In this document: positions 424 to 27,586 of the stretch, in pieces | Layout: each line of letters begins with the position of its first letter | Position numbering within the stretch: position 1 is the stretch's first letter | Program-made: the position numbers and the translations under genes | The notes under the pieces: model-generated | Told to the model about the DNA's origin: nothing | The model's input: only the letters and a program-made list of their open reading frames with translations | The model's database searches: none | NCBI GenBank assembly: GCA_037917675.1 | Contig: JAVCBW010000053.1 | Location: forward strand, 1-36,214 | DNA: 36,214 bases | Direction of reading: 5' to 3' | Source: Thermoproteota archaeon | GTDB lineage: Archaea > Korarchaeota > Korarchaeia > B14-G2

Positions 424-1474
424 GCTTACAGCAAGGTTTAAACTCGACGGAAAATTAGATGTAGCCCTCTTTGAAACCTATAGGTCAATAGTTAACGAGC
501 TATTAGATTATGCTCATTCTGAAGGAACTACATCATTTAAGAGGATGAAAGCTGAGAAGTACCGTGAATTAAGACGAAGATATCCGAAGTTGCCATCCCA
601 CTACACTTACACAGCTTGCCAGATGGCTTGTTCAATATATAAGTCGTTCAGGAAGCTCGAAAGGAAGGGTAAAGTTAAAGCTGACAAACCTCAGTTCAAG
701 AGAAACGTAGTAATGCTCGACGACCATTTGTTCAGGCTCGATTTGGAAAACTGGACTGTCAAAATTTTCATGCCGAGTGGAAGGTTTGATTTCAAGCTTC
801 TACATGGAGAATACCACGAGAAATTCAAGGAGTGGAAAGTTGGTCAGGCGTGGTTAGTCAAGAGGGGCGACTATGTTTACTTAAACGTAGTATTCTCGAA
901 GAACATCGAAATAAGAGATTGTAAGGATGTTATAGGAGTGGACGTGAATGAAAACAACGTTACCATTGCAACTAATCACAGTCTCGTGCTGTTTGAGACA
1001 AGGGAAAGAGTAGTTAGAACTGCTTACTTCTTAAAGAGGAAGGGGATTCAGAGCAAGATTAGGTGTAGAAGAGTTAAAGCTAATGTCTTAGCGAAATATC
1101 GTAATAGGGAGAGAAACAGAGTTCTCGACATTTATCATAAGGTTGCCAATGAGACTGTCAAGGTCGCTTCAGAAGGGAATTCAGCGATAGCCCTGGAAAA
1201 CCTCAAAGAAATAAGAACGAGAGTGAACTATTCAAGGGAGTTGAATGGAAGACTACACAGGTGGAGCTTCAGAAAGCTCCAGCAGATATTGGAGTACAAG
1301 GCTAAGCTCAAAGGTATTGATGTCGTATACGTCAATCCCTACAAGACCTCAAGCCTCTGCCCGACATGTGGGAGAAGGCTAAGCCCGAACGGGTGGAGGC
1401 TGCTAAAATGCGAGTGTGGTTTAGTTGCAGATAGAGATGCAATCGGTAGCTGGAATATTAGACTAGAGGTTTAG
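389..1474 (+). CDS. tnpB: TnpB RNA-guided endonuclease (IS607-associated)
   Basis: RuvC triad IGVDVN / IALENL / ADRDAIG, zinc finger CPTC...[23 protein letters not shown]. Likely start GTG 395. The usual C-terminal tail ([18 protein letters not shown]...SQNG) lies in another frame after about 1470. Confidence 0.93.
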
Positions 1475-1589
1475 AGATTGATGTGGGAAGCTCCGCTTAC
1501 CCCGAAAGCCCTCCCATGAAACCCGAGGAGGGAAGGCTCTCCACCACAAACGTAACAGAAGCCATGAAAGTGGTAGAGAGCCAGAACGG
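1475..1589 (+). ncRNA. Candidate TnpB omegaRNA scaffold (element right end); boundaries approximate
   Basis: Lies between tnpB and the element end, and is similar to the stand-alone copy at about 35076-35185. TnpB omegaRNAs are known to derive from the right end. Confidence 0.55.
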
Positions 1590-21299: not shown

Positions 21300-22133
21300 T
21301 GTGAGAGAAGACTTTACTGCTACCAGCACTCACACTTACACTAGCCTACATGACAGCAGCAGCTCAGCCTACCCTACTTGGAGTACATGCTCCAAGCCCT
21401 AGCATACCACTCCCATAGCATAACAGCAGTCTACTATCAAGTAGAGTGGCCAGAAATCACCTTAACAGTAAAGCTGGCAGCACCACCAAAGCTAGGGCCA
21501 CTAGGAGACATAGTAGTATACCTAGACACAGATCCAGCAAAAGGATACTACAGCTTAAACCACCCACTATATGGCACAGACCACTACATAGACATCAACA
21601 ACAAGACACTATATAGCAGAGTAGAGATCATAGAGGAAGACGTCTACATAGCATACTGGCAGCAACCCAAACCCCAGCAGTGAAAGTAGACCCAGCAAAC
21701 ATGACAGTAACAGCTGAATTCAGCCTCCACCACTAAACATAACAGGCGAGCTGAAGATAGCTATAGCAACATACATGCCAAGTGAAGAAGGCTGGCAGCT
21801 AGCTGACAGAACCCCCAGTGAGCTAGACCAGCAGCCCCCTATACATCAGCATACTACATAAGAGAACAGCAAGCACCACAGCCCATAGCAGCATGGTACA
21901 AGCCAGAGAAGCCATCCTATAACATAACCAACATAACAGTATACTGCATGCTAGCAGACGACCTTACAGGAGTACATGAGGCAGCTGCAATGTACTCAAT
22001 AGACGATGAAAACTGGAGCTGCATGAAGATGGTGAGAGTAAACACAAGCACATACATGGCTCAGCTCCCAACTCCACCATGGAGAGAAACACTGCTATAC
22101 TACATCCTATGCTGGGATAGAACAGGGAAGTAG
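21300..22133 (+). pseudogene. Fragmented gene for a secreted Ig-like-domain protein
   Basis: Signal-like KTLLLPALTLTLAYMTAAAQ, then VVYLDTDP, then DDLTGV...YSIDDENW...M...YMAQLP...LYYILCWD.TG in different frames. Confidence 0.6.
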
Positions 22134-22139
22134 AAGGAA

Positions 22140-22966
22140 GCAGCAGCCATCACAGCAATCACAGCACCACACATAGCTAGAGCAACCAAGCCAGCAGTAA
22201 AAGCAGCCATGCAGCTAGCTAGCATGCAGAAGCCTAAGGCAGCAAGAAAGCTAGCACTAGCACGGCAGCAGCAGGTGCAGCAATCCAGCTAGCACTCATA
22301 GCAAACTGGGCTCTAACAGGGACGCCAGTAACCCAGCACATGATAGCATTCCTCTCAAGCTGCCTCTACATAATAGTAGGCATAGAGGTGATCCTACATG
22401 CAAAGCAGGATACTACAGGAAGCTAGAAGGAAGGCTACCCCACTACTCTTAGCAGGGTTAATTCTGCTAGCAACACCAGCAGCCCTAAAGCTCTATGACA
22501 CATACAAGGCAGCAACCCTAGCAACACTCACATTCACCCTGATAGCGAGAGCACAAGCAAGACAGGCTCAAAAAGCCGAGAAGACAGTGAAACTCGCAGG
22601 AAGCCTCCAAAGGGACCTAGAGAGCTTCATAAGCTGAGCAAACAAGAATACACACGAATTCAGACAGACATTCAAGCAGGCACTAGCACAAACCCCCTGC
22701 CAAGCAAGCTTACAGCAATAGTACTCTATAAGCTAGCAGACAACAGTAAAGTCTACACGATAACACCATATATTGTGGACGGAGAGTACGCTACACTACA
22801 GCAGAGCCATCCGCAGAGCCCAGACCTCACAGTAGCCTTAACCAAGCAAGCATGGTACATGCTGGTGAAGCTAGGCTACAAGTACACAGGAGAGCCAGAC
22901 TATACAGAGCTACGGAAGACTCTCCTGAAAATGATAATAGGAGGACAGCTCAAGACAGAAGGCTAG
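22140..22966 (+). pseudogene. Fragments of a membrane protein / hypothetical gene
   Basis: Short hydrophobic ORF pieces (22398-22637, 22775-22966) in different frames on the same strand. Confidence 0.35.
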
Positions 22967-23111
22967 AAGCAGACCCTCTGCCAGCTGAGAAGCATCCATT
23001 AAGCTCAGCTTGCACGTCGAGCTCAACAACAGCTTGACAGCAAAAGCGCCTACAGCTAGCACAAGCTGAAGTAGAGGCAAAGGATATTAACCTCGATTGC
23101 AGCAGCCTCAC

Positions 23112-23858
23112 ATGAAAGCTGTGGTGCTAGCTGGAGGGCAGGGAGCGAGGCTTAGGCCACTAACCTACTACTTCCAGAAGTGCATGATCCCAGTAGGAGC
23201 CAAGCAGAAGCCTCTCCTAGAGTACATAATCAGACTCCTCAGATACCACAATCTAAGAGACATAATCATAGCAGCAGGGTATAAGCATGAGCAGATAATA
23301 AACTACTTTGAAGATGGATCTAGATTCAAAGTCAAGATAACCTATGTGGTAGATAGGCCAGGCTATGAGAGCACAGCGCTAGCTCTACTAAATGCCATGG
23401 AGCAAGGGCATCTAGCTCCAAACGAAGACATACTCGTATACTATGGAGACATCTTGTCAAACGTCAATTTAACAGAGCTTATCAAAGTACACGTTGAGAA
23501 GAAGGCAGCAGCAACCCTAGCTCTAGCAAGAGGCTATAGGATAAGAGTTGGGACAGCGAGAACCATGCCAGATGGGAGGATAACACAGCTAGTAGAGAAG
23601 CCTCAGCTAGACATACCAGTTACCATAGGCATACTAGCATTGAACACAACATCACTCCAGGTAGTAGAGCAGCTCAGAAAGCACACTAAACACGTAGACA
23701 TAATGGCACACCTAATACCCCAGCTGATAAAGCAGGGGAAGCCAGTCTACAGCTACCTGACAACAGAATACTGGCAGGACATAGGCTCAACAGAAAGATA
23801 CGAGAAACTAGACCACAGCCAAGTAGAAAGGAAGCTAGCACACCTACTAAAAGACTAG
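23112..23858 (+). CDS. Sugar-phosphate nucleotidyltransferase family protein
   Basis: MKAVVLAGGQGARLRPLT...K, YGD, EKP, WQDIG. Confidence 0.92.
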   Translation: MKAVVLAGGQGARLRPLTYYFQKCMIPVGAKQKPLLEYIIRLLRYHNLRDIIIAAGYKHEQIINYFEDGSRFKVKITYVVDRPGYESTALALLNAMEQGHLAPNEDILVYYGDILSNVNLTELIKVHVEKKAAATLALARGYRIRVGTARTMPDGRITQLVEKPQLDIPVTIGILALNTTSLQVVEQLRKHTKHVDIMAHLIPQLIKQGKPVYSYLTTEYWQDIGSTERYEKLDHSQVERKLAHLLKD

Positions 23859-23867
23859 CTGCAGAGC

Positions 23868-24462
23868 CGACACCCTCCATGGCTGAAGCCAGGAGACTCT
23901 GGGTTTGTCTCTTAAGCTTCATCCTACCCAGTTCTTTTACAGAGTTGACACAGCCATTCTCGTTCTTTAATCGTCTCTCCACCAAGAACCACTCCCCTCC
24001 TCCCATTCTTATACTTACCCTACCAATCTCCCAAAAATCTAATACAACTTCTGCTCTCTTCTTCAATCGAAGGCGTGGATAGAGCTTCTTAGCAACCTCT
24101 ATAGCCTTACTATCTGCTACCTGCCATTGGTATGCTGTCCTCCACTCTAGTTTTCTCCTTTCAACTCGCATAGAACCGCAACCGAAGAAATTCCATATAA
24201 ACTCTAATTTATTAGCCATCGCTATTTTAGCTTGTAGATAGTGGTGTGGCTTATCCATGTTGTTCTTTTTGCTATTCTAATACCTCCTTCACCATCAAAA
24301 GTCCTGCTAAGTATGCTAAACTACTTCACTCATGCTACTCACATAACTATGTTGTGTCTCAAACCTTAAAAGTCACAATGGGAGCATATCTTTGACGTGT
24401 TAGCTTCATTAACTTTTATTACCATGATACCTTCCCAAGCTGCTTTGTATTCGATGAATCTA
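23868..24462 (-). mobile_element. IS200/IS605 tnpB relic with embedded LAGLIDADG gene and right-end hairpin
   Basis: Minus strand reads RFIEYKAAWEGIMVIKVNEANTSKICSHC (TnpB, ~24462-24376), then the LAGLIDADG remnant, then hairpin CTCC-TGGC-TTCA-GCCA-T-GGAG (23895-23875) followed by GGTGTC. Confidence 0.72.
23925..24342 (-). pseudogene. Single-motif LAGLIDADG homing endonuclease, frameshifted
   Basis: LAYLAGL/FDGEGGIRI across a 1-nt frameshift (~24320-24275), then FFGCGS...AYQWQV...KKLYPRLRLKKRAEVVLDF and a C-terminal IKEREWLCQLCK in another frame. Confidence 0.82.
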
Positions 24463-24703
24463 GATCACCTGCTCCATACCTATGCTCCCTCCAAAACCTA
24501 ATAACCTCAACGCTATTCCAGTCCTTGGGTGCCTCTCTTCTCAGCTCCTCGTTTAGAAGCACAGCTTTAGCTAGATTCCTCTTCTCCTCCAGCTCCAGCC
24601 TACGTAAAATAGCCTCTCTTACAACCTCGCTCCAGTTGATATTTCGAAGAGCCCACATTCTCCTCTTAAGTTCTTCGTCAACTCTAACACTAACTACAGT
24701 TAC
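24419..24703 (-). CDS. VapB-type ribbon-helix-helix antitoxin (start codon unclear; cognate toxin missing)
   Basis: VVSVRVDEELKRRM...INWSEVVREAI...NSVEVIRFWRE pattern typical of archaeal VapB; 3' end runs into the tnpB relic. Confidence 0.75.
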   Translation of the reverse strand, partial: VTVVSVRVDEELKRRMWALRNINWSEVVREAILRRLELEEKRNLAKAVLLNEELRREAPKDWNSVEVIRFWREHRYGAGDLDSSNTKQLGKVSW

Positions 24704-24822
24704 AAATCTATACTACACAGGTCATAACTCATACTTGTATCTTACCAGCGACCTTCTATGTAAGCTACAACAGGTTTGTTAAGGAGCTTAAGAAAGGGTA
24801 TTTCAGTATTTGAATGGAGAGC

Positions 24823-25276
24823 TTACCAGTACTCGGGTTTTGAGCTCTCCCTTATCTTCTCAATAGGATCTGTTACGTGCCTCCACAGTCCCTTCCTGAA
24901 GCTTACTACAACTATGCCAAGCTCGTCTATTATATAGTCGCTTAAAAGCACTTCATTTATGTCTGGATTCACAACAACGTTACACTTTACTTCCTTCGAC
25001 CCCTCTACACCTGCTAGCTTAATCCTCACCATCCCCTACTCTAGGTAAGTCTACCTCTCCACCTGCTGTCTCAAACCCCTCTATCTCAAAGTCTTCTGTA
25101 GGCCATACTTTCAACGCTATCGCTAGCCTAATTGGCATTGCAATATCTGGCTCTCCACTTTCAAATCCAGAGCTGACTAGAGCTGATGTTTCTAAGCGTA
25201 CACCTCTCTCCGATGACACGTATAGCTTCACTCTAACTCCCAGCTCCACCACGCTTAATCCTACACATAAAGCCAA
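24823..25276 (-). pseudogene. Retropepsin-like (clan AA protease fold) protein split by a frameshift near 25030
   Basis: ETSALVSSGFE...P...ETAGG in one frame continues into EVLLSDYIIDELGIVV...GLWR in the overlapping ORF. Confidence 0.65.
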
Positions 25277-25287
25277 CCTTTTTCCTC

Positions 25288-26090
25288 GGGGTTCAGCTTA
25301 CATAGGCGTTGGTAAGCCTTGGAGCTCATCGGGCACAGTCCCCCTCTTAGGTTCATCAGGGTTTGTCATAGTCCTTATCTCCATTCGTGGCAACCCCCAG
25401 AGTCTTCATCTGCATCTTCCACTAGGGATCATCTTCTTAATCACCACACGGTAGAAGGTGCTCGGACTCTGGGGAAAACCACACATCCTAAGGTAGATAT
25501 TGATTGCTCCACACAGTTGTCTGTCGAGGGTCAATCTACATTCCCTGCATTTGACCACCCGCCCCTTTCGGAGCTTCACTATTTCTCCTCCACACATGGG
25601 GCAAGTGGATGAAGTCTTATATGGATTTACAAGCTTGACTCTAGCCTTATAGCCCATATACTGGACTATCATCTTCCAGTTCTGTTTAGTGACATCCCTG
25701 TTATGCTTCTTCCTCCTGGTATACATGCCGCTCTTCTCAAGGTTTTCGAAGCCATGTACTGCATTTGGGAACATCCTAGAAAGTTGTGTGGTCAACTTGT
25801 GAATAAGGTCCTTAGCCCTACTCGCTTCTCTCCTTCCATGTTCTGAAACTTTAGGTTCAATTGATTGTTTCTTGGATGCTTTGCTCTGAGCCACCTTTCT
25901 TTTAATCTCGTGAACTCCATGGATGTGGCAGAGTTTCCTTAAATCTTTTTTATCCATCCATATCTTGTGGAGAATCCATCCATACTGCATTTATTCAGAT
26001 CCCAGCCAATGAATTCTGTTGGCTCCCTATTTTCTCGACTGGGTTGCCAGCCTTCCCTCTCTTAAGTGTGCTGCCCTTAACTCTCTTCAC
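25288..26090 (-). mobile_element. tnpB: Degraded tnpB element (IS607-like) ending CTGAACCCC
   Basis: FIGWDLN (RuvC-I, out of frame), [20 protein letters not shown]...CREC...LDRQLCGAINIYLRM; internal deletions and frameshifts; end motif shared with the 29741-30014 element. Left boundary approximate. Confidence 0.82.
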
Positions 26091-26158
26091 AATCTTATGC
26101 ATCATGACAATGCTAGAAAGACATTAAACGAAGGTAATGTCTAGGGTATGGTGAGCTC

Positions 26159-27586
26159 ATGTCTAGGTACTCTCTACCCAGAGAGGGGAAGTCTAGCAGT
26201 GAGGTGCTAGCCCTCTTAGATGAGGCTTCTAGAGGCGACATGGATCCTCATAGCGGGCTGATGTGGGCTCACTCCTATGAGCATGGGATCAGAGAGGTCT
26301 GGGACGCTGCACACCAGGCGTTCCTAAAGTTCCTAGACAAGACGATGCTAAACTTCACAGTATACCCTAGCATCCTGAAGCTAGAGAGGGAGGTTGTAGG
26401 CATAGTAGCCTCTCTGATGAATGCTGGAGAGGAAGCTGTTGGAACATTCACTTACGGTGGAACTGAGAGCATAATGCTAGCTGTCAAGGCTGCTAGAGAC
26501 CACTTCAGGAAGAGGAGGGGCTCTGATGTAGCTCCTGAGATCATAGTGCCACAGACTGGGCACCCCTCCTTCCTGAAGGCAGCAGAATACCTCCAGCTGA
26601 AGGTGGTGTATGCTAGAGTAGACCCTGAAAGCTATAAGGTAGATGTAGGTGATGTCGAGGAGAAGATAAGCTCTAATACAGCCTTGGTGGTTGGCTCAGC
26701 TCCAAACTACCCCTTTGGGACAATAGATGAAATAGAGAGCCTAGGGGAGCTAGCTGAAGACAGGAATGTATGGCTACATGTAGACGCCTGTATGGGAGGC
26801 TTCATCCTACCATTCTTCGAGAAGCTAGGAGAGAACGTAGTGAAGTTCGACTTCAGAGCCCCAGGTGTATGCTCGATGTCAGTAGACCTCCACAAGTATG
26901 GTTATGCTCCCAAGGGGGCTTCAGTAGTACTCTATAGGGAAGGCAGCTATAAGCTAAACCAGATATATGTGAATGCTAGCTGGCCAGGCTACCCTCTAGT
27001 AAACACTGCAGTCTTATCGACGAGGTCCACAGGACCCCTTGCAGCAGCATGGGCTGTACTACACTGCCTAGGAGAAGAAGGCTACCTGAGGCTCGCGAGT
27101 AAGGTGCTTGATGCAAGGAGAAAGCTTGTCAGAGGGCTTGAGAAGCTAGGCTTCAAGATACTAGGTGCCCCTGAGTCCAGCCTGCTAGCATTCACACACA
27201 ATGAAGTAAACGTGTCGCTAATAGCTGAGCGCATGAAGAAGAGAGGATGGTACCTTCAGGTACAGCCAGGATCCCTCCACCTAGGATTCCCTAAGAGCAT
27301 ACACTTAACCATCAGCCCAATACATGACGAGAAGGCAGAGAAGCTCCTAGCTGACCTAGAGGAGTGCATAGAGGAAGCTAGGCGTCAGCCTCCTCCGCCT
27401 GTAGACAGAGTCTTAGAGCAGCTATCTGGCAGGATAAGCTTAAGGGATGCGATGAAGGCCTTAGGGCTCAGAAGAGGAGAGGCCCCTAGAGAAATGGCCT
27501 TGATAAACGAGCTCATACACCTGCTTCCACCAGATGTCGTTGAAAGCGTTTTCAGGGAGCTAGTCAACGAGCTATTCAGACCCTAG
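26159..27586 (+). CDS. PLP-dependent group II decarboxylase, sphingosine-1-phosphate-lyase-like
   Basis: TYGGTESIMLA, VGSAPNYPFGTID, LHVDACMGGF, SMSVDLHKYGYAPKGASVVLYR. Confidence 0.88.
   Translation: MSRYSLPREGKSSSEVLALLDEASRGDMDPHSGLMWAHSYEHGIREVWDAAHQAFLKFLDKTMLNFTVYPSILKLEREVVGIVASLMNAGEEAVGTFTYGGTESIMLAVKAARDHFRKRRGSDVAPEIIVPQTGHPSFLKAAEYLQLKVVYARVDPESYKVDVGDVEEKISSNTALVVGSAPNYPFGTIDEIESLGELAEDRNVWLHVDACMGGFILPFFEKLGENVVKFDFRAPGVCSMSVDLHKYGYAPKGASVVLYREGSYKLNQIYVNASWPGYPLVNTAVLSTRSTGPLAAAWAVLHCLGEEGYLRLASKVLDARRKLVRGLEKLGFKILGAPESSLLAFTHNEVNVSLIAERMKKRGWYLQVQPGSLHLGFPKSIHLTISPIHDEKAEKLLADLEECIEEARRQPPPPVDRVLEQLSGRISLRDAMKALGLRRGEAPREMALINELIHLLPPDVVESVFRELVNELFRP

What the first reader, a model, noticed from the sequence alone, without database searches (positions are those of the whole stretch)
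23868..24462. LAGLIDADG endonuclease nested inside an IS605 tnpB element and bracketed by a BHB-like splice structure: candidate archaeal intron in a TnpB/omegaRNA transposon
Seen on the minus strand, in order: (1) a TnpB fragment RFIEYKAAWEGIMVIKVNEANTSKICSHC; (2) a frameshifted single-motif LAGLIDADG gene (LAYLAGL/FDGEG); (3) an IS200/IS605-type right end with a bulged-T hairpin at 23895-23875. The two borders of the LAGLIDADG segment pair as a bulge-helix-bulge: inner helix GACACA(24358-24353)/TGTGTC(23952-23947), bulge TGA(24361-24359), 4-bp helix GGTT(24365-24362)/AACT(23946-23943), bulge CTG(23942-23940), outer helix CTTTTA/TAAAAG (one extra A). Cutting after the second bulge base gives a 419-nt intron, 24359-23941. 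Established: archaeal BHB introns carrying LAGLIDADG genes occur in rRNA genes, and bacterial IStrons join group I introns to IS605/IS607. Inference: a homing BHB intron invaded a tnpB/omegaRNA transcript, or an IS605 element replaced part of TnpB with a LAGLIDADG cargo. I do not know of either being described. Caveats: the locus is decayed, and the spliced exons do not restore the missing TnpB RuvC-III.
Basis: partly seen in the sequence, partly recalled or inferred. Interest (0 to 1): 0.82.

Follow-up and report, generated by a model that had tools for sequence, protein, structure and literature searches.

The report
Dead homing-endonuclease gene inside dead transposon
A frameshifted LAGLIDADG homing-endonuclease gene sits between the leftover TnpB fragment and the leftover right end of one old IS200/IS605-type insertion sequence, and the proposed archaeal splice structure around it does not hold up as an intron.

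Summary
(1) 24476-24357(-) is a TnpB zinc-finger/TNB remnant (Pfam E=6.6e-12; 60% to a relative's TnpB, E=1.8e-13). (2) 24333-23924(-) is a single-motif LAGLIDADG_1 pseudogene. It is collinear with all of residues 23-162 of an intact 162-aa homolog, P0002, but needs four frame changes. (3) 23934-23869(-) is the right end of the same IS family. It is 76-81% identical to five copies in genome G028, and the bulged-T hairpin is conserved with one compensatory change. So the LAGLIDADG gene is nested in an IS remnant.

(4) The bulge-helix-bulge pairing is in the letters, and an equally good one is expected only 0.008 times per locus-sized box. It still fails as an intron. Its 3' half is LAGLIDADG coding sequence conserved in P0002. 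The ORF stop lies 17 nt beyond the '3' splice site'. IS homology resumes 6 nt from that site. Excision leaves RuvC-III missing and an in-frame stop upstream. The pairs have probability 0.004 or less in the predicted ensemble.

There is one copy and no second nested locus. I read it as an ordinary decayed pile-up of selfish elements in an unusual combination.

The parts
24357..24476 (-). TnpB remnant (end of the RuvC-II/TNB region with the first visible CxxC of the zinc finger). About 40 codons with two in-frame stops (TAG 24467-24465, TAA 24368-24366). No N-terminal 300 aa and no RuvC-III.
   Evidence: PF07282 E=6.6e-12 on 24369-24464. tblastn with the L011 TnpB ORF covers 24476-24357, 60%, E=1.8e-13. 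Four other TnpB relatives match the same stretch at E 1.6e-10 to 2.4e-5.
24334..24356 (-). Short spacer of unresolved origin between the TnpB remnant and the LAGLIDADG start codon. Together with 24357-24372 it holds the 5' half of the proposed BHB.
   Evidence: No significant match. The best local DNA alignments to L011 are weak: 24387-24371 to the second CxxC of L011 (score 19, reached by 19 of 500 shuffles), and 24365-24355 and 24338-24330 at scores 12-13.
23924..24333 (-). Single-motif LAGLIDADG_1 homing-endonuclease pseudogene, from ATG 24333 to TAG 23926-23924. Frames change 1->0 (about 24322), 0->2 (T run at about 24299), 2->1 (24276-24225) and 1->0 (about 24019-23989).
   Evidence: Five frame pieces cover P0002 residues 23-26, 27-34, 35-48, 44-131 and 133-162 in order, with identities 3/4, 7/8, 12/14, 53/85 and 20/30. 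phmmer E=3.1e-27. Own-genome matches to P0002 at E=7.6e-32 and 2e-6. P0002 hits PF00961 at E=7.1e-8.
23869..23934 (-). Right end (RE / 3' part of the omegaRNA-coding region) of an IS200/IS605-type TnpB element. It overlaps the last three codons and the stop of the LAGLIDADG ORF by 11 nt.
   Evidence: 76.5% over 68 nt to L011 1755-1822, which is the last TnpB codons plus about 55 nt, E=6e-10. Four more G028 copies match at 78-81%, all covering query positions 7-72 only. The G028 copies diverge from one another just past the aligned block.
23875..23895 (-). 8-bp hairpin with a bulged T inside the right end.
   Evidence: Paired in 6 of 6 aligned sequences. One pair is CG in 4, UA in the window and UG in 1.
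24353..24372 (-). 5' half of the proposed bulge-helix-bulge: outer CTTTTA, extra A, central GGTT, bulge TGA, inner GACACA.
   Evidence: Letters verified. It holds the TAA stop of the TnpB frame.
23934..23952 (-). 3' half of the proposed bulge-helix-bulge: inner TGTGTC, central AACT, bulge CTG, outer TAAAAG. It lies wholly inside the LAGLIDADG codons for L-C-Q-L-C-K-R.
   Evidence: Letters verified. The coding frame and its match to P0002 (L-Y-Q-L-C-K-E) are shown.
23097..23858 (+). Convergent host gene (nucleotidyl transferase). Its stop lies 11 nt from the IS right end, which marks the chromosomal flank.
   Evidence: PF00483 E=1e-35.

Best explanation
The locus is the wreck of two selfish elements, one nested in the other.

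An IS200/IS605-family TnpB element once sat just downstream of the nucleotidyl-transferase gene. Its right end survives at 23934-23869, and about 40 codons of its TnpB zinc-finger region survive at 24476-24357. Between these two pieces the element should code the second zinc-finger half, RuvC-III and the TnpB C-terminal tail. Instead there is a free-standing, phage-like, single-motif LAGLIDADG_1 homing-endonuclease gene (24333-23924).

The most likely history has four steps:
1. The IS inserted.
2. The LAGLIDADG gene entered its 3' part by an illegitimate or endonuclease-provoked repair event. This event deleted roughly 115-150 nt of tnpB and joined the gene to the right end through a short overlap (GAACTGGGTAG, read by both homologies).
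3. The IS lost its 5' part.
4. The LAGLIDADG gene then decayed through four frameshifts.

Nothing here is predicted to work now. There is no intact nuclease ORF, no RuvC-III, and only the last 66 nt of the guide-RNA scaffold region.

The BHB-like pairing is best read as a fortuitous, or at most non-splicing, complementarity between the leader of the LAGLIDADG gene and its own last codons.

Shown: the identity, order and orientation of the three pieces, the frameshifts, single-copy status, and the misfit of the BHB with the homology junctions. Inferred: the order of events and the mode of entry.
For: - TnpB remnant.
- LAGLIDADG pseudogene collinear with all of P0002 residues 23-162.
- The right end belongs to a multi-copy IS. 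The tail matches four places in G028 plus L011. In those copies TnpB C-terminal codons directly precede it.
- Both the best TnpB match and a tail match lie in one element, L011. The two window pieces are in the same order and orientation as there, but 422 nt apart (24357 to 23934) instead of 148 nt (L011 1606 to 1755).
- No RuvC-III-like match to any of 5 TnpB relatives anywhere in 23800-24600.
- The nearest look-alike clusters of the LAGLIDADG protein are 144-171-aa LAGLIDADG_1 proteins, 71-100% viral. 37 phage records hold distant relatives at 26-35% identity, some annotated 'LAGLIDADG endonuclease'. This fits a free-standing gene rather than an intron-borne one.
- No indel in the gene in Logan contigs: X1 across 23000-24534, X2 across 23000-24292.
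- One copy in the own genome.
- The surrounding genes are ordinary chromosomal ones.
- Against the intron: the stop lies 17 nt past the 3' cut; the six bases 23940-23935 match none of five IS copies; TAA comes before the 5' cut; the MFE lacks the pairing, z=+1.66, and the pair probabilities are <=0.004; Rfam gives no hit.
Against: - The BHB-like pairing is stronger than expected by chance at one locus: 0.008 expected for inner>=6, central 4, outer>=6 in an 80x130 box. Forcing it costs only +1.7 kcal/mol at 37 C. I have no positive explanation for it.
- Its cut sites fall within a few bases of where TnpB homology fades (about 24357) and where right-end homology resumes (23934).
- The left junction is not resolved. 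The CxxC in the window may be the first or the second of the TnpB finger, so the size of the deletion is uncertain.
- Only one comparable IS with both parts (L011) was found, at 60% aa and 76% nt identity, and it is itself an N-terminally short 221-aa open frame.
- The genomic context of the only close LAGLIDADG relative (P0002) could not be seen, so a heritable IS-LAGLIDADG unit is not excluded.
- The Logan runs may include the sample the window came from, so the 'no indel' result is not independent.
Confidence: 0.75

Rival explanations
1. The segment 24359-23941 is, or was, an archaeal bulge-helix-bulge intron carrying a LAGLIDADG homing-endonuclease gene. It invaded a tnpB/omegaRNA transcription unit and is cut out by the tRNA-splicing endonuclease.
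For: All 16 pairs with two 3-nt bulges around a 4-bp helix are present. An equal or better arrangement is expected 0.008 times per 80x130 box in this genome. The cuts lie within 3-6 nt of the points where TnpB and right-end homology stop and resume. The constrained fold costs +1.7 kcal/mol. From established knowledge (also stated in PMC13565253, passages seen), archaeal BHB introns can carry LAGLIDADG genes.
Against: - The ORF stop (23926-23924) is outside the 'intron', so the excised RNA would carry an ORF without its last five codons and stop.
- The 3' strands of all three helices are codons conserved in P0002.
- 'Exon 2' would begin with six bases that belong to the LAGLIDADG gene and match 0 of 6 positions in five IS copies.
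- A TAA lies in the TnpB frame before the 5' cut.
- The joined exons lack the second zinc-finger half and RuvC-III.
- An extra A turns the 3' bulge into a 1x3 loop. The outer helix is five A-U pairs and one G-C.
- Ensemble pair probabilities are <=0.004, and the region folds worse than its shuffles, z=+1.66.
- By extrapolation (263 hits with every third offset from 300 to 600 sampled), about 800 equally good motifs with 300-600-nt spacing exist in this 1.78-Mb genome.
- No second locus exists for covariation.
Confidence: 0.05
2. The LAGLIDADG gene is a heritable module of the insertion sequence, not an accident. One form of this idea is a cargo that replaced the 3' part of tnpB, so that a protein-only homing nuclease took over TnpB's role of cutting the emptied donor site. 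The other form is a homing endonuclease whose target lies in the tnpB 3' end/omegaRNA region. Either way the composite moved or homed as a unit before dying here.
For: The gene lies inside the IS boundaries, in the same orientation as tnpB, and replaces exactly the nuclease's catalytic C-terminus while the right end is kept. The gene joins the right end through an 11-nt overlap. TnpB is itself described as a transposon-retention homing nuclease (abstract of bioRxiv 10.1101/2023.11.20.567912, seen in the listing). P0002 ends at the same residues (K-E-T-G-stop against K-R-T-G-stop).
Against: - Single copy in the own genome. Depth in the Logan contigs equals that of the flank.
- P0002 relatives were found in 0 of 42 other genomes of the phylum. 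Pattern scans of GTDB species genomes and of IMG/VR found none.
- 0 of 10 longer relatives scanned carry a TnpB domain, and no longer fused form was found (weak evidence).
- The shared C-terminus is also the family's usual end: distant phage-like relatives end with similar K-R-G residues (alignment). It therefore does not show a shared junction.
- The N-terminal extension of P0002 shows no scorable likeness to TnpB.
Confidence: 0.12
3. Chance neighbours. The TnpB fragment, the LAGLIDADG pseudogene and the right-end-like tail are leftovers of three unrelated events in a junk-rich intergenic region, not parts of one nested structure.
For: The 2.3 kb between the two host genes (23859-26158) also holds another TnpB half, a start-less RHH ORF and two small ORFs. 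TnpB homology is abruptly lost upstream near 24459-24476, where a related metagenome contig continues differently.
Against: The fragment and the tail both find their best matches in the same IS family of one genome, and both occur in one element there (L011). They keep the right order, strand and polarity. The LAGLIDADG ORF runs directly into the right-end homology with no spacer.
Confidence: 0.08

Closest known systems
Free-standing single-motif LAGLIDADG_1 homing endonuclease genes of tailed phages (Pfam PF00961)
   Same: One LAGLIDADG helix followed by D-G-E-G. Length is about 140 aa from the likely start. The nearest Atlas clusters are 144-171-aa LAGLIDADG_1 proteins, mostly viral. There are tblastn matches at 26-35% identity in 37 phage records. 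The gene is not inside a recognisable intron or intein.
   Different: It lies in an archaeal chromosome, inside an IS remnant, and is broken by four frameshifts. The only close relative (P0002, 62%) comes from an unnamed assembly of unknown context.
Archaeal rRNA/tRNA bulge-helix-bulge introns carrying LAGLIDADG genes (for example the intron type of Dalgaard et al. 1993, cited in PMC13565253, reference list seen)
   Same: A LAGLIDADG ORF of about 400 nt bracketed by sequences that can be drawn as helix, 3-nt bulge, 4-bp helix, 3-nt bulge, helix.
   Different: The host is not a stable RNA gene. The ORF overruns the 3' cut. The helix strands are coding sequence. Excision restores nothing. There is no conservation or RNA evidence. 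From recall, not from a call: the known intron enzymes are mostly two-motif monomers.
IStrons (group I intron fused to IS605/IS607 tnpB; bioRxiv 10.1101/2023.11.20.567912, abstract seen in the listing)
   Same: An intron-type or homing-type selfish element physically combined with an IS200/IS605-family element and its guide-RNA region.
   Different: No group I intron here: Rfam gives 0 hits at gathering scores in the window and none relevant at E<=1 in 23700-24600. The added element is a protein-coding endonuclease gene at the 3' rather than the 5' side, and everything is decayed.
IS200/IS605-family TnpB elements (IS1341-like, tnpB only) and their short TnpB-less derivatives
   Same: A TNB/zinc-finger remnant, and a right end with a conserved subterminal hairpin shared with at least five copies in G028. 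Two of those (L027, L028) keep only the last 25-30 TnpB codons.
   Different: No left end, no TnpA and no RuvC-III. A foreign nuclease gene occupies the place of the TnpB C-terminus.

Membership tests
Archaeal BHB intron | hBHBh' motif: two 3-nt bulges on opposite strands separated by a 4-bp helix, flanked by helices | tested here: inconclusive
   Present only in a relaxed form. The central helix has one G-U, and an extra A opposite the 3' bulge makes it a 1x3 loop. An equal or better motif is expected 0.008 times per 80x130 box.
Archaeal BHB intron | Splice sites coincide with the break in homology to intron-less copies, and excision restores the host sequence | tested here: not met
   Right-end homology starts at 23934, not 23940, and 23940-23935 match 0 of 6 positions in five IS copies. 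The joined exons still lack about 115-150 nt of tnpB, including RuvC-III.
Archaeal BHB intron | The intron ORF lies within the intron | tested here: not met
   The ORF stop at 23926-23924 is 17 nt beyond the 3' cut at 23941|23940.
Archaeal BHB intron | Helices conserved or covarying in homologous loci | not testable with these tools
   No homologous DNA locus was found.
Archaeal BHB intron | Spliced exon junction and circular intron in RNA | not testable with these tools
   No RNA run is listed among the holders.
LAGLIDADG_1 homing endonuclease (PF00961) | Profile match above the curated cut-off | tested here: inconclusive
   The window pieces give 0 families at E<=1, and PF00961 finds nothing in the own genome. 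The 62%-identical homolog P0002 scores 33.7 bits against a cut-off of 23.1, and the window is collinear with it.
LAGLIDADG_1 homing endonuclease (PF00961) | LAGLIDADG helix ending in an acidic residue (single motif, so a homodimer type) | tested here: met
   L-A-Y-L-A-G-L / F-D-G-E-G is read across one frameshift. Only one motif is present, and 12 single-domain relatives align along the whole length.
LAGLIDADG_1 homing endonuclease (PF00961) | Intact reading frame | tested here: not met
   Four frame changes. No indel differences appear in the Logan contigs that cover them.
IS200/IS605-family TnpB element | TnpB with a RuvC-I/II/III split nuclease and a zinc finger | tested here: not met
   Only TNB positions 6-35 of 60 remain. 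No match to RuvC-III or to the N-terminal part was found in 23800-24600.
IS200/IS605-family TnpB element | Right end with a subterminal hairpin, shared by multiple copies | tested here: met
   Five G028 copies match at 76-81%. The hairpin is paired in 6 of 6 sequences with one both-sided change.
IS200/IS605-family TnpB element | Left end / TnpA | not tested
   The upstream sequence is an RHH-like ORF. No left-end model was available.
IStron | Group I intron ribozyme joined to the IS | tested here: not met
   Rfam gives 0 gathering hits in the window and no intron family at E<=1 in 23700-24600.

The most novel reading that the evidence does not exclude
The LAGLIDADG gene is a heritable part of an IS200/IS605-type element. 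Either it is a protein-only homing nuclease that replaced the RNA-guided TnpB as the transposon's retention nuclease, or it is a homing endonuclease that targets the tnpB 3' end/omegaRNA region of this IS family. The conserved leader-to-ORF-end pairing, whether BHB-like or not, would then be part of how the module is expressed or removed from the guide-RNA precursor. The intact relative P0002 would be a living example.
Probability: 0.1. Interest if true: 0.7.

Novelty: new variant of a known kind. Interest (0 to 1): 0.3.

Why it matters
TnpB is now understood as an RNA-guided homing nuclease that keeps its transposon in place. A protein-only homing endonuclease sitting exactly where TnpB's catalytic end should be would be a natural 'nuclease swap' between the two great classes of selfish nucleases. 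My three full-text searches found no paper describing such a pair. Searches returned only general reviews and unrelated papers that name both LAGLIDADG and TnpB or IS605-type terms. One search covered BHB plus LAGLIDADG plus protein-coding.

As found here it is a single, dead, single-copy locus, so it shows only that such a combination has arisen once. Its practical value is as a pointer to the intact relative P0002. It is also a caution: a BHB-like drawing, even one expected only 0.008 times by chance, is not an intron when it disagrees with the homology junctions and the reading frame.

Tried and rejected
1. Insert-free allele. The same-genus genome G001 matches only 21500-22960 and 24824-25284, on two contigs and in a different context. 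No empty site could be read.

2. More copies of the LAGLIDADG gene.
- Own genome: none.
- 60 relatives: none.
- 42 other genomes of the phylum: none.
- GTDB species genomes by peptide patterns: none.
- IMG/VR: none.
- JGI metagenomes: two loci, both false. The match lies in a 238-aa ORF of a bacterial-looking operon that merely shares one pattern word.

3. Fused TnpB-LAGLIDADG proteins. None appeared among longer proteins (weak evidence). 0 of 10 longer phmmer hits scanned carry a TnpB domain; further hits over 280 aa were not scanned.

4. N-terminal extension of P0002 as a TnpB remnant. By eye there are hints (F-K-V; D-x-N-x-M-N), but Pfam gives 0 families at E<=10 on residues 1-30 and BLASTP against the L011 TnpB gives nothing better than E=2. 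I rejected it as evidence.

5. Shared right junction in P0002. I first took the common K-(R/E)-T-G-stop as proof. I withdrew this because distant family members end with similar residues.

6. An 11-nt exact reverse-complement match between window 23955-23945 and L011 1742-1752 (E=1.8 in that small search), and the weak collinear matches. I noted them but do not rely on them.

7. RNA evidence. No RNA holder is listed, and the Logan contigs laid were DNA only. No joint across 24360/23940 is listed, which for DNA says nothing about splicing.

8. Repeats of the tail in the own genome: only chance-level short matches.

Full report
WHAT IS THERE

On the minus strand, between the convergent nucleotidyl-transferase gene (23097-23858, PF00483 E=1e-35) and a PLP-decarboxylase gene (26159-27586), lies 2.3 kb without an intact gene. 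Its downstream 600 nt are the finding.

TnpB FRAGMENT

- Window 24369-24464(-) hits Pfam PF07282 (Cas12f1-like TNB domain) at E=6.6e-12, profile positions 6-35 of 60.
- A search of the 43 genomes held for this phylum with the 32-aa fragment found relatives in 9 of 43, counting the own genome.
- The best is in G028 (locus L011, 65%). Its 221-aa open frame aligns to 24476-24357 in one frame, through two stops (TAG 24467-24465, TAA 24368-24366). Identity is 60% over 40 aa, E=1.8e-13.
- None of five TnpB relatives matches anything else in 23800-24600 above noise. In particular there is no RuvC-III.
- The nearest match within the own genome is only 45% over 29 aa.

LAGLIDADG GENE

Pfam finds nothing on the raw window pieces, and PF00961 finds nothing in the six-frame own genome.

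An exhaustive phmmer search of 1.84 billion representatives with the 113-aa frame piece gave 27 hits at E<=0.001. Two of them were at E<=1e-10: the window's own ORF, and P0002, an intact 162-aa protein from an unnamed assembly (E=3.1e-27, 62%). P0002 passes PF00961 LAGLIDADG_1 (E=7.1e-8, 33.7 bits against a cut-off of 23.1).

Five pieces in alternating frames cover P0002 residues 23-162 without a gap in order:

| Window piece | Frame | P0002 residues | Identity |
|---|---|---|---|
| M-S-E-V, from 24333 | 1 | 23-26 | 3/4 |
| S-L-A-Y-L-A-G-L | 0 | 27-34 | 7/8 |
| F-D-G-E-G-G-I-R-I-A-K-R-T-T | 2 | 35-48 | 12/14 |
| long middle piece | 1 | 44-131 | 53/85 |
| K-Y-K-N-G-R-R-G-V-V-L-G-G-E-T-I-K-E-R-E-W-L-C-Q-L-C-K-R-T-G, to 23927 | 0 | 133-162 | 20/30 |

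TAG follows at 23926-23924. The gene is therefore 24333-23924 with four frame changes.

Logan contigs of two runs from two studies show no indel in the parts they cover: X1 over 23000-24534, X2 over 23000-24292. One of these runs may be the window's own source.

The family looks like free-standing phage genes:
- The nearest Atlas clusters are 144-171-aa LAGLIDADG_1 proteins, 71-100% viral.
- 37 phage records hold 26-35% relatives.
- Twelve single-domain relatives align end to end.

RIGHT END

The 66 nt at 23934-23869 are 76.5% identical (68 columns, E=6e-10) to L011 1755-1822. That stretch is the last TnpB codons, the stop and about 55 nt beyond.

A search of the phylum with 23862-23940 found four more places in G028 at 78-81% identity. 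All of them cover query positions 7-72 and no more.

In the alignment of the five G028 copies with the window:
- the G028 copies stay alike upstream, in TnpB C-terminal codons, where the window does not follow them;
- they diverge from one another a few bases past the block, which marks the element's end.

One pair reads CG in four copies, UG in one and UA in the window.

The TnpB fragment and the tail thus belong to one IS family and keep its order and polarity. They are 422 nt apart, against 148 nt in L011. The LAGLIDADG gene fills that space and overlaps the right-end homology by 11 nt. The gene is nested in an IS remnant.

THE BHB

All 16 pairs exist.

As a null I scanned both strands of the organism's own genome. 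This covered 350 million position pairs with spacing 300-600. I required a central 4-bp helix with 3-nt bulges on both strands, and allowed G-U pairs and one extra base next to the outer helix.
- Inner>=6 and outer>=6 occurs at 7.5e-7 per pair, or 0.008 per 80x130-nt box.
- The minimal 4+4 form gives 0.29 per box.

Some BHB-like drawing is therefore available at about every third locus, but this one is in the top few percent. It is not trivially chance.

Everything else speaks against an intron:
1. The ORF stop is 17 nt outside the 3' cut.
2. The 3' strands of the inner, central and outer helices are the codons L-C-Q-L-C-K-R, which match L-Y-Q-L-C-K-E of P0002. That strand is fixed by coding.
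3. The 3' cut (23941|23940) is 6 nt from the homology junction (23935|23934), and those six bases match none of five IS copies.
4. TAA closes the TnpB frame 6 nt before the 5' cut.
5. Joining the exons leaves out the second CxxC, RuvC-III and the C-terminal tail, about 115-150 nt in L011.
6. The MFE of 24400-23900 does not contain the pairing, and the region folds worse than its shuffles (z=+1.66). Forcing the pairs costs +1.7 kcal/mol at 37 C and +3.1 at 75 C, and their ensemble probabilities are <=0.004.
7. Rfam gives nothing, and there are no tRNAs in the window.

Covariation and RNA junctions could not be tested: no homologous DNA locus was found and no RNA run is listed.

IS THE COMBINATION HERITABLE?

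I looked for a second nested locus and found none.
- The gene is single-copy in its genome.
- It was not found in 60 relatives, in 42 other genomes of the phylum, in pattern scans of GTDB species genomes or in IMG/VR.
- The two JGI metagenome 'hits' are false.
- No longer fused form turned up, and 0 of 10 longer relatives scanned carry a TnpB domain.
- P0002 ends with the same residues as the window's gene, but so, roughly, do distant relatives.
- The N-terminal extension of P0002 has no scorable likeness to TnpB.
- The context of P0002 could not be fetched.

LITERATURE

Three full-text searches were run: LAGLIDADG + TnpB (7 papers hold both, 5 listed); BHB + LAGLIDADG + protein-coding (3 papers); and LAGLIDADG with IS605/IS200/IS607. 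None gave a paper on a LAGLIDADG gene inside an IS200/IS605 element.

Of PMC13565253 I read only the passages around the two terms. It treats homing endonucleases and TnpB side by side and notes that archaeal BHB introns harbour homing-endonuclease genes. Of the other papers I saw only the listing and the start of the abstract. Supplements were not consulted.

VERDICT

The best account (0.75) is a free-standing phage-type LAGLIDADG gene that landed in, and deleted part of, an IS200/IS605 TnpB element, after which both decayed.

The unexplained residue is the strength of the leader-to-ORF-end complementarity.

The boldest reading still open (about 0.1) is that the LAGLIDADG gene is a true module of this IS family. 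P0002's contig would decide that.

Noticed in passing
window 25406-25990 (-): A 194-aa ORF is the C-terminal half of a different TnpB (PF07282 E=6.1e-13, full TNB domain and a RuvC-III-like end). Related pieces at 55-85% aa identity lie on own-genome contig C22:35360-35924.
   Followed up: partly
window 24422-24700 (-): RHH/CopG-like ORF (PF01402 E=0.014, under the cut-off). It has no ATG/GTG/TTG ahead of its beta-strand, and its frame runs on into the TnpB remnant. No PIN/VapC partner follows it.
   Followed up: partly
window 24826-25276 (-); L009 (G001:C13:14571-15035): Two small overlapping ORFs without a Pfam family. There is a 70% nt match in the same-genus genome, but there it lies in an unrelated neighbourhood.
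   Followed up: partly
L012 (G041:C15), locus positions 1214-1500: A run of 287 N begins directly after the C-A-I-C codons of a 59%-identical TnpB. This is the same point at which the window's TnpB breaks off. It may be an assembly gap or a masked stretch; it was not listed among the withheld bases.
   Followed up: no
L011, L023, L026, L027, L028 (genome G028): At least five copies of the 66-nt IS right end occur in one genome. L027 and L028 keep only the last 25-30 TnpB codons ahead of it, which suggests short TnpB-less derivatives. A second small stem (alignment columns 17-27) shows GC in 2 copies and AU in 3.
   Followed up: partly
window 24352-24459 (Logan contigs of X1 and X2): A 201/213-nt contig at higher depth is 88% identical over this stretch and runs on upstream into unlike sequence. 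By eye that sequence reads as further TnpB codons, so there is a closer and longer TnpB copy in the same samples. X1 also carries T>C at 24322 and 24333; the latter turns the LAGLIDADG ATG into GTG.
   Followed up: partly
window 1013-1513 (+); L020: Another TnpB-like gene (361-aa open frame), 45% identical to the fragment over 29 aa.
   Followed up: no
window 23955-23945 vs L011 1742-1752: An 11-nt exact reverse-complement match between the LAGLIDADG 3' coding region and the IS sequence just upstream of the right-end junction in the intact copy. E=1.8 in the small search, so it may be chance.
   Followed up: no
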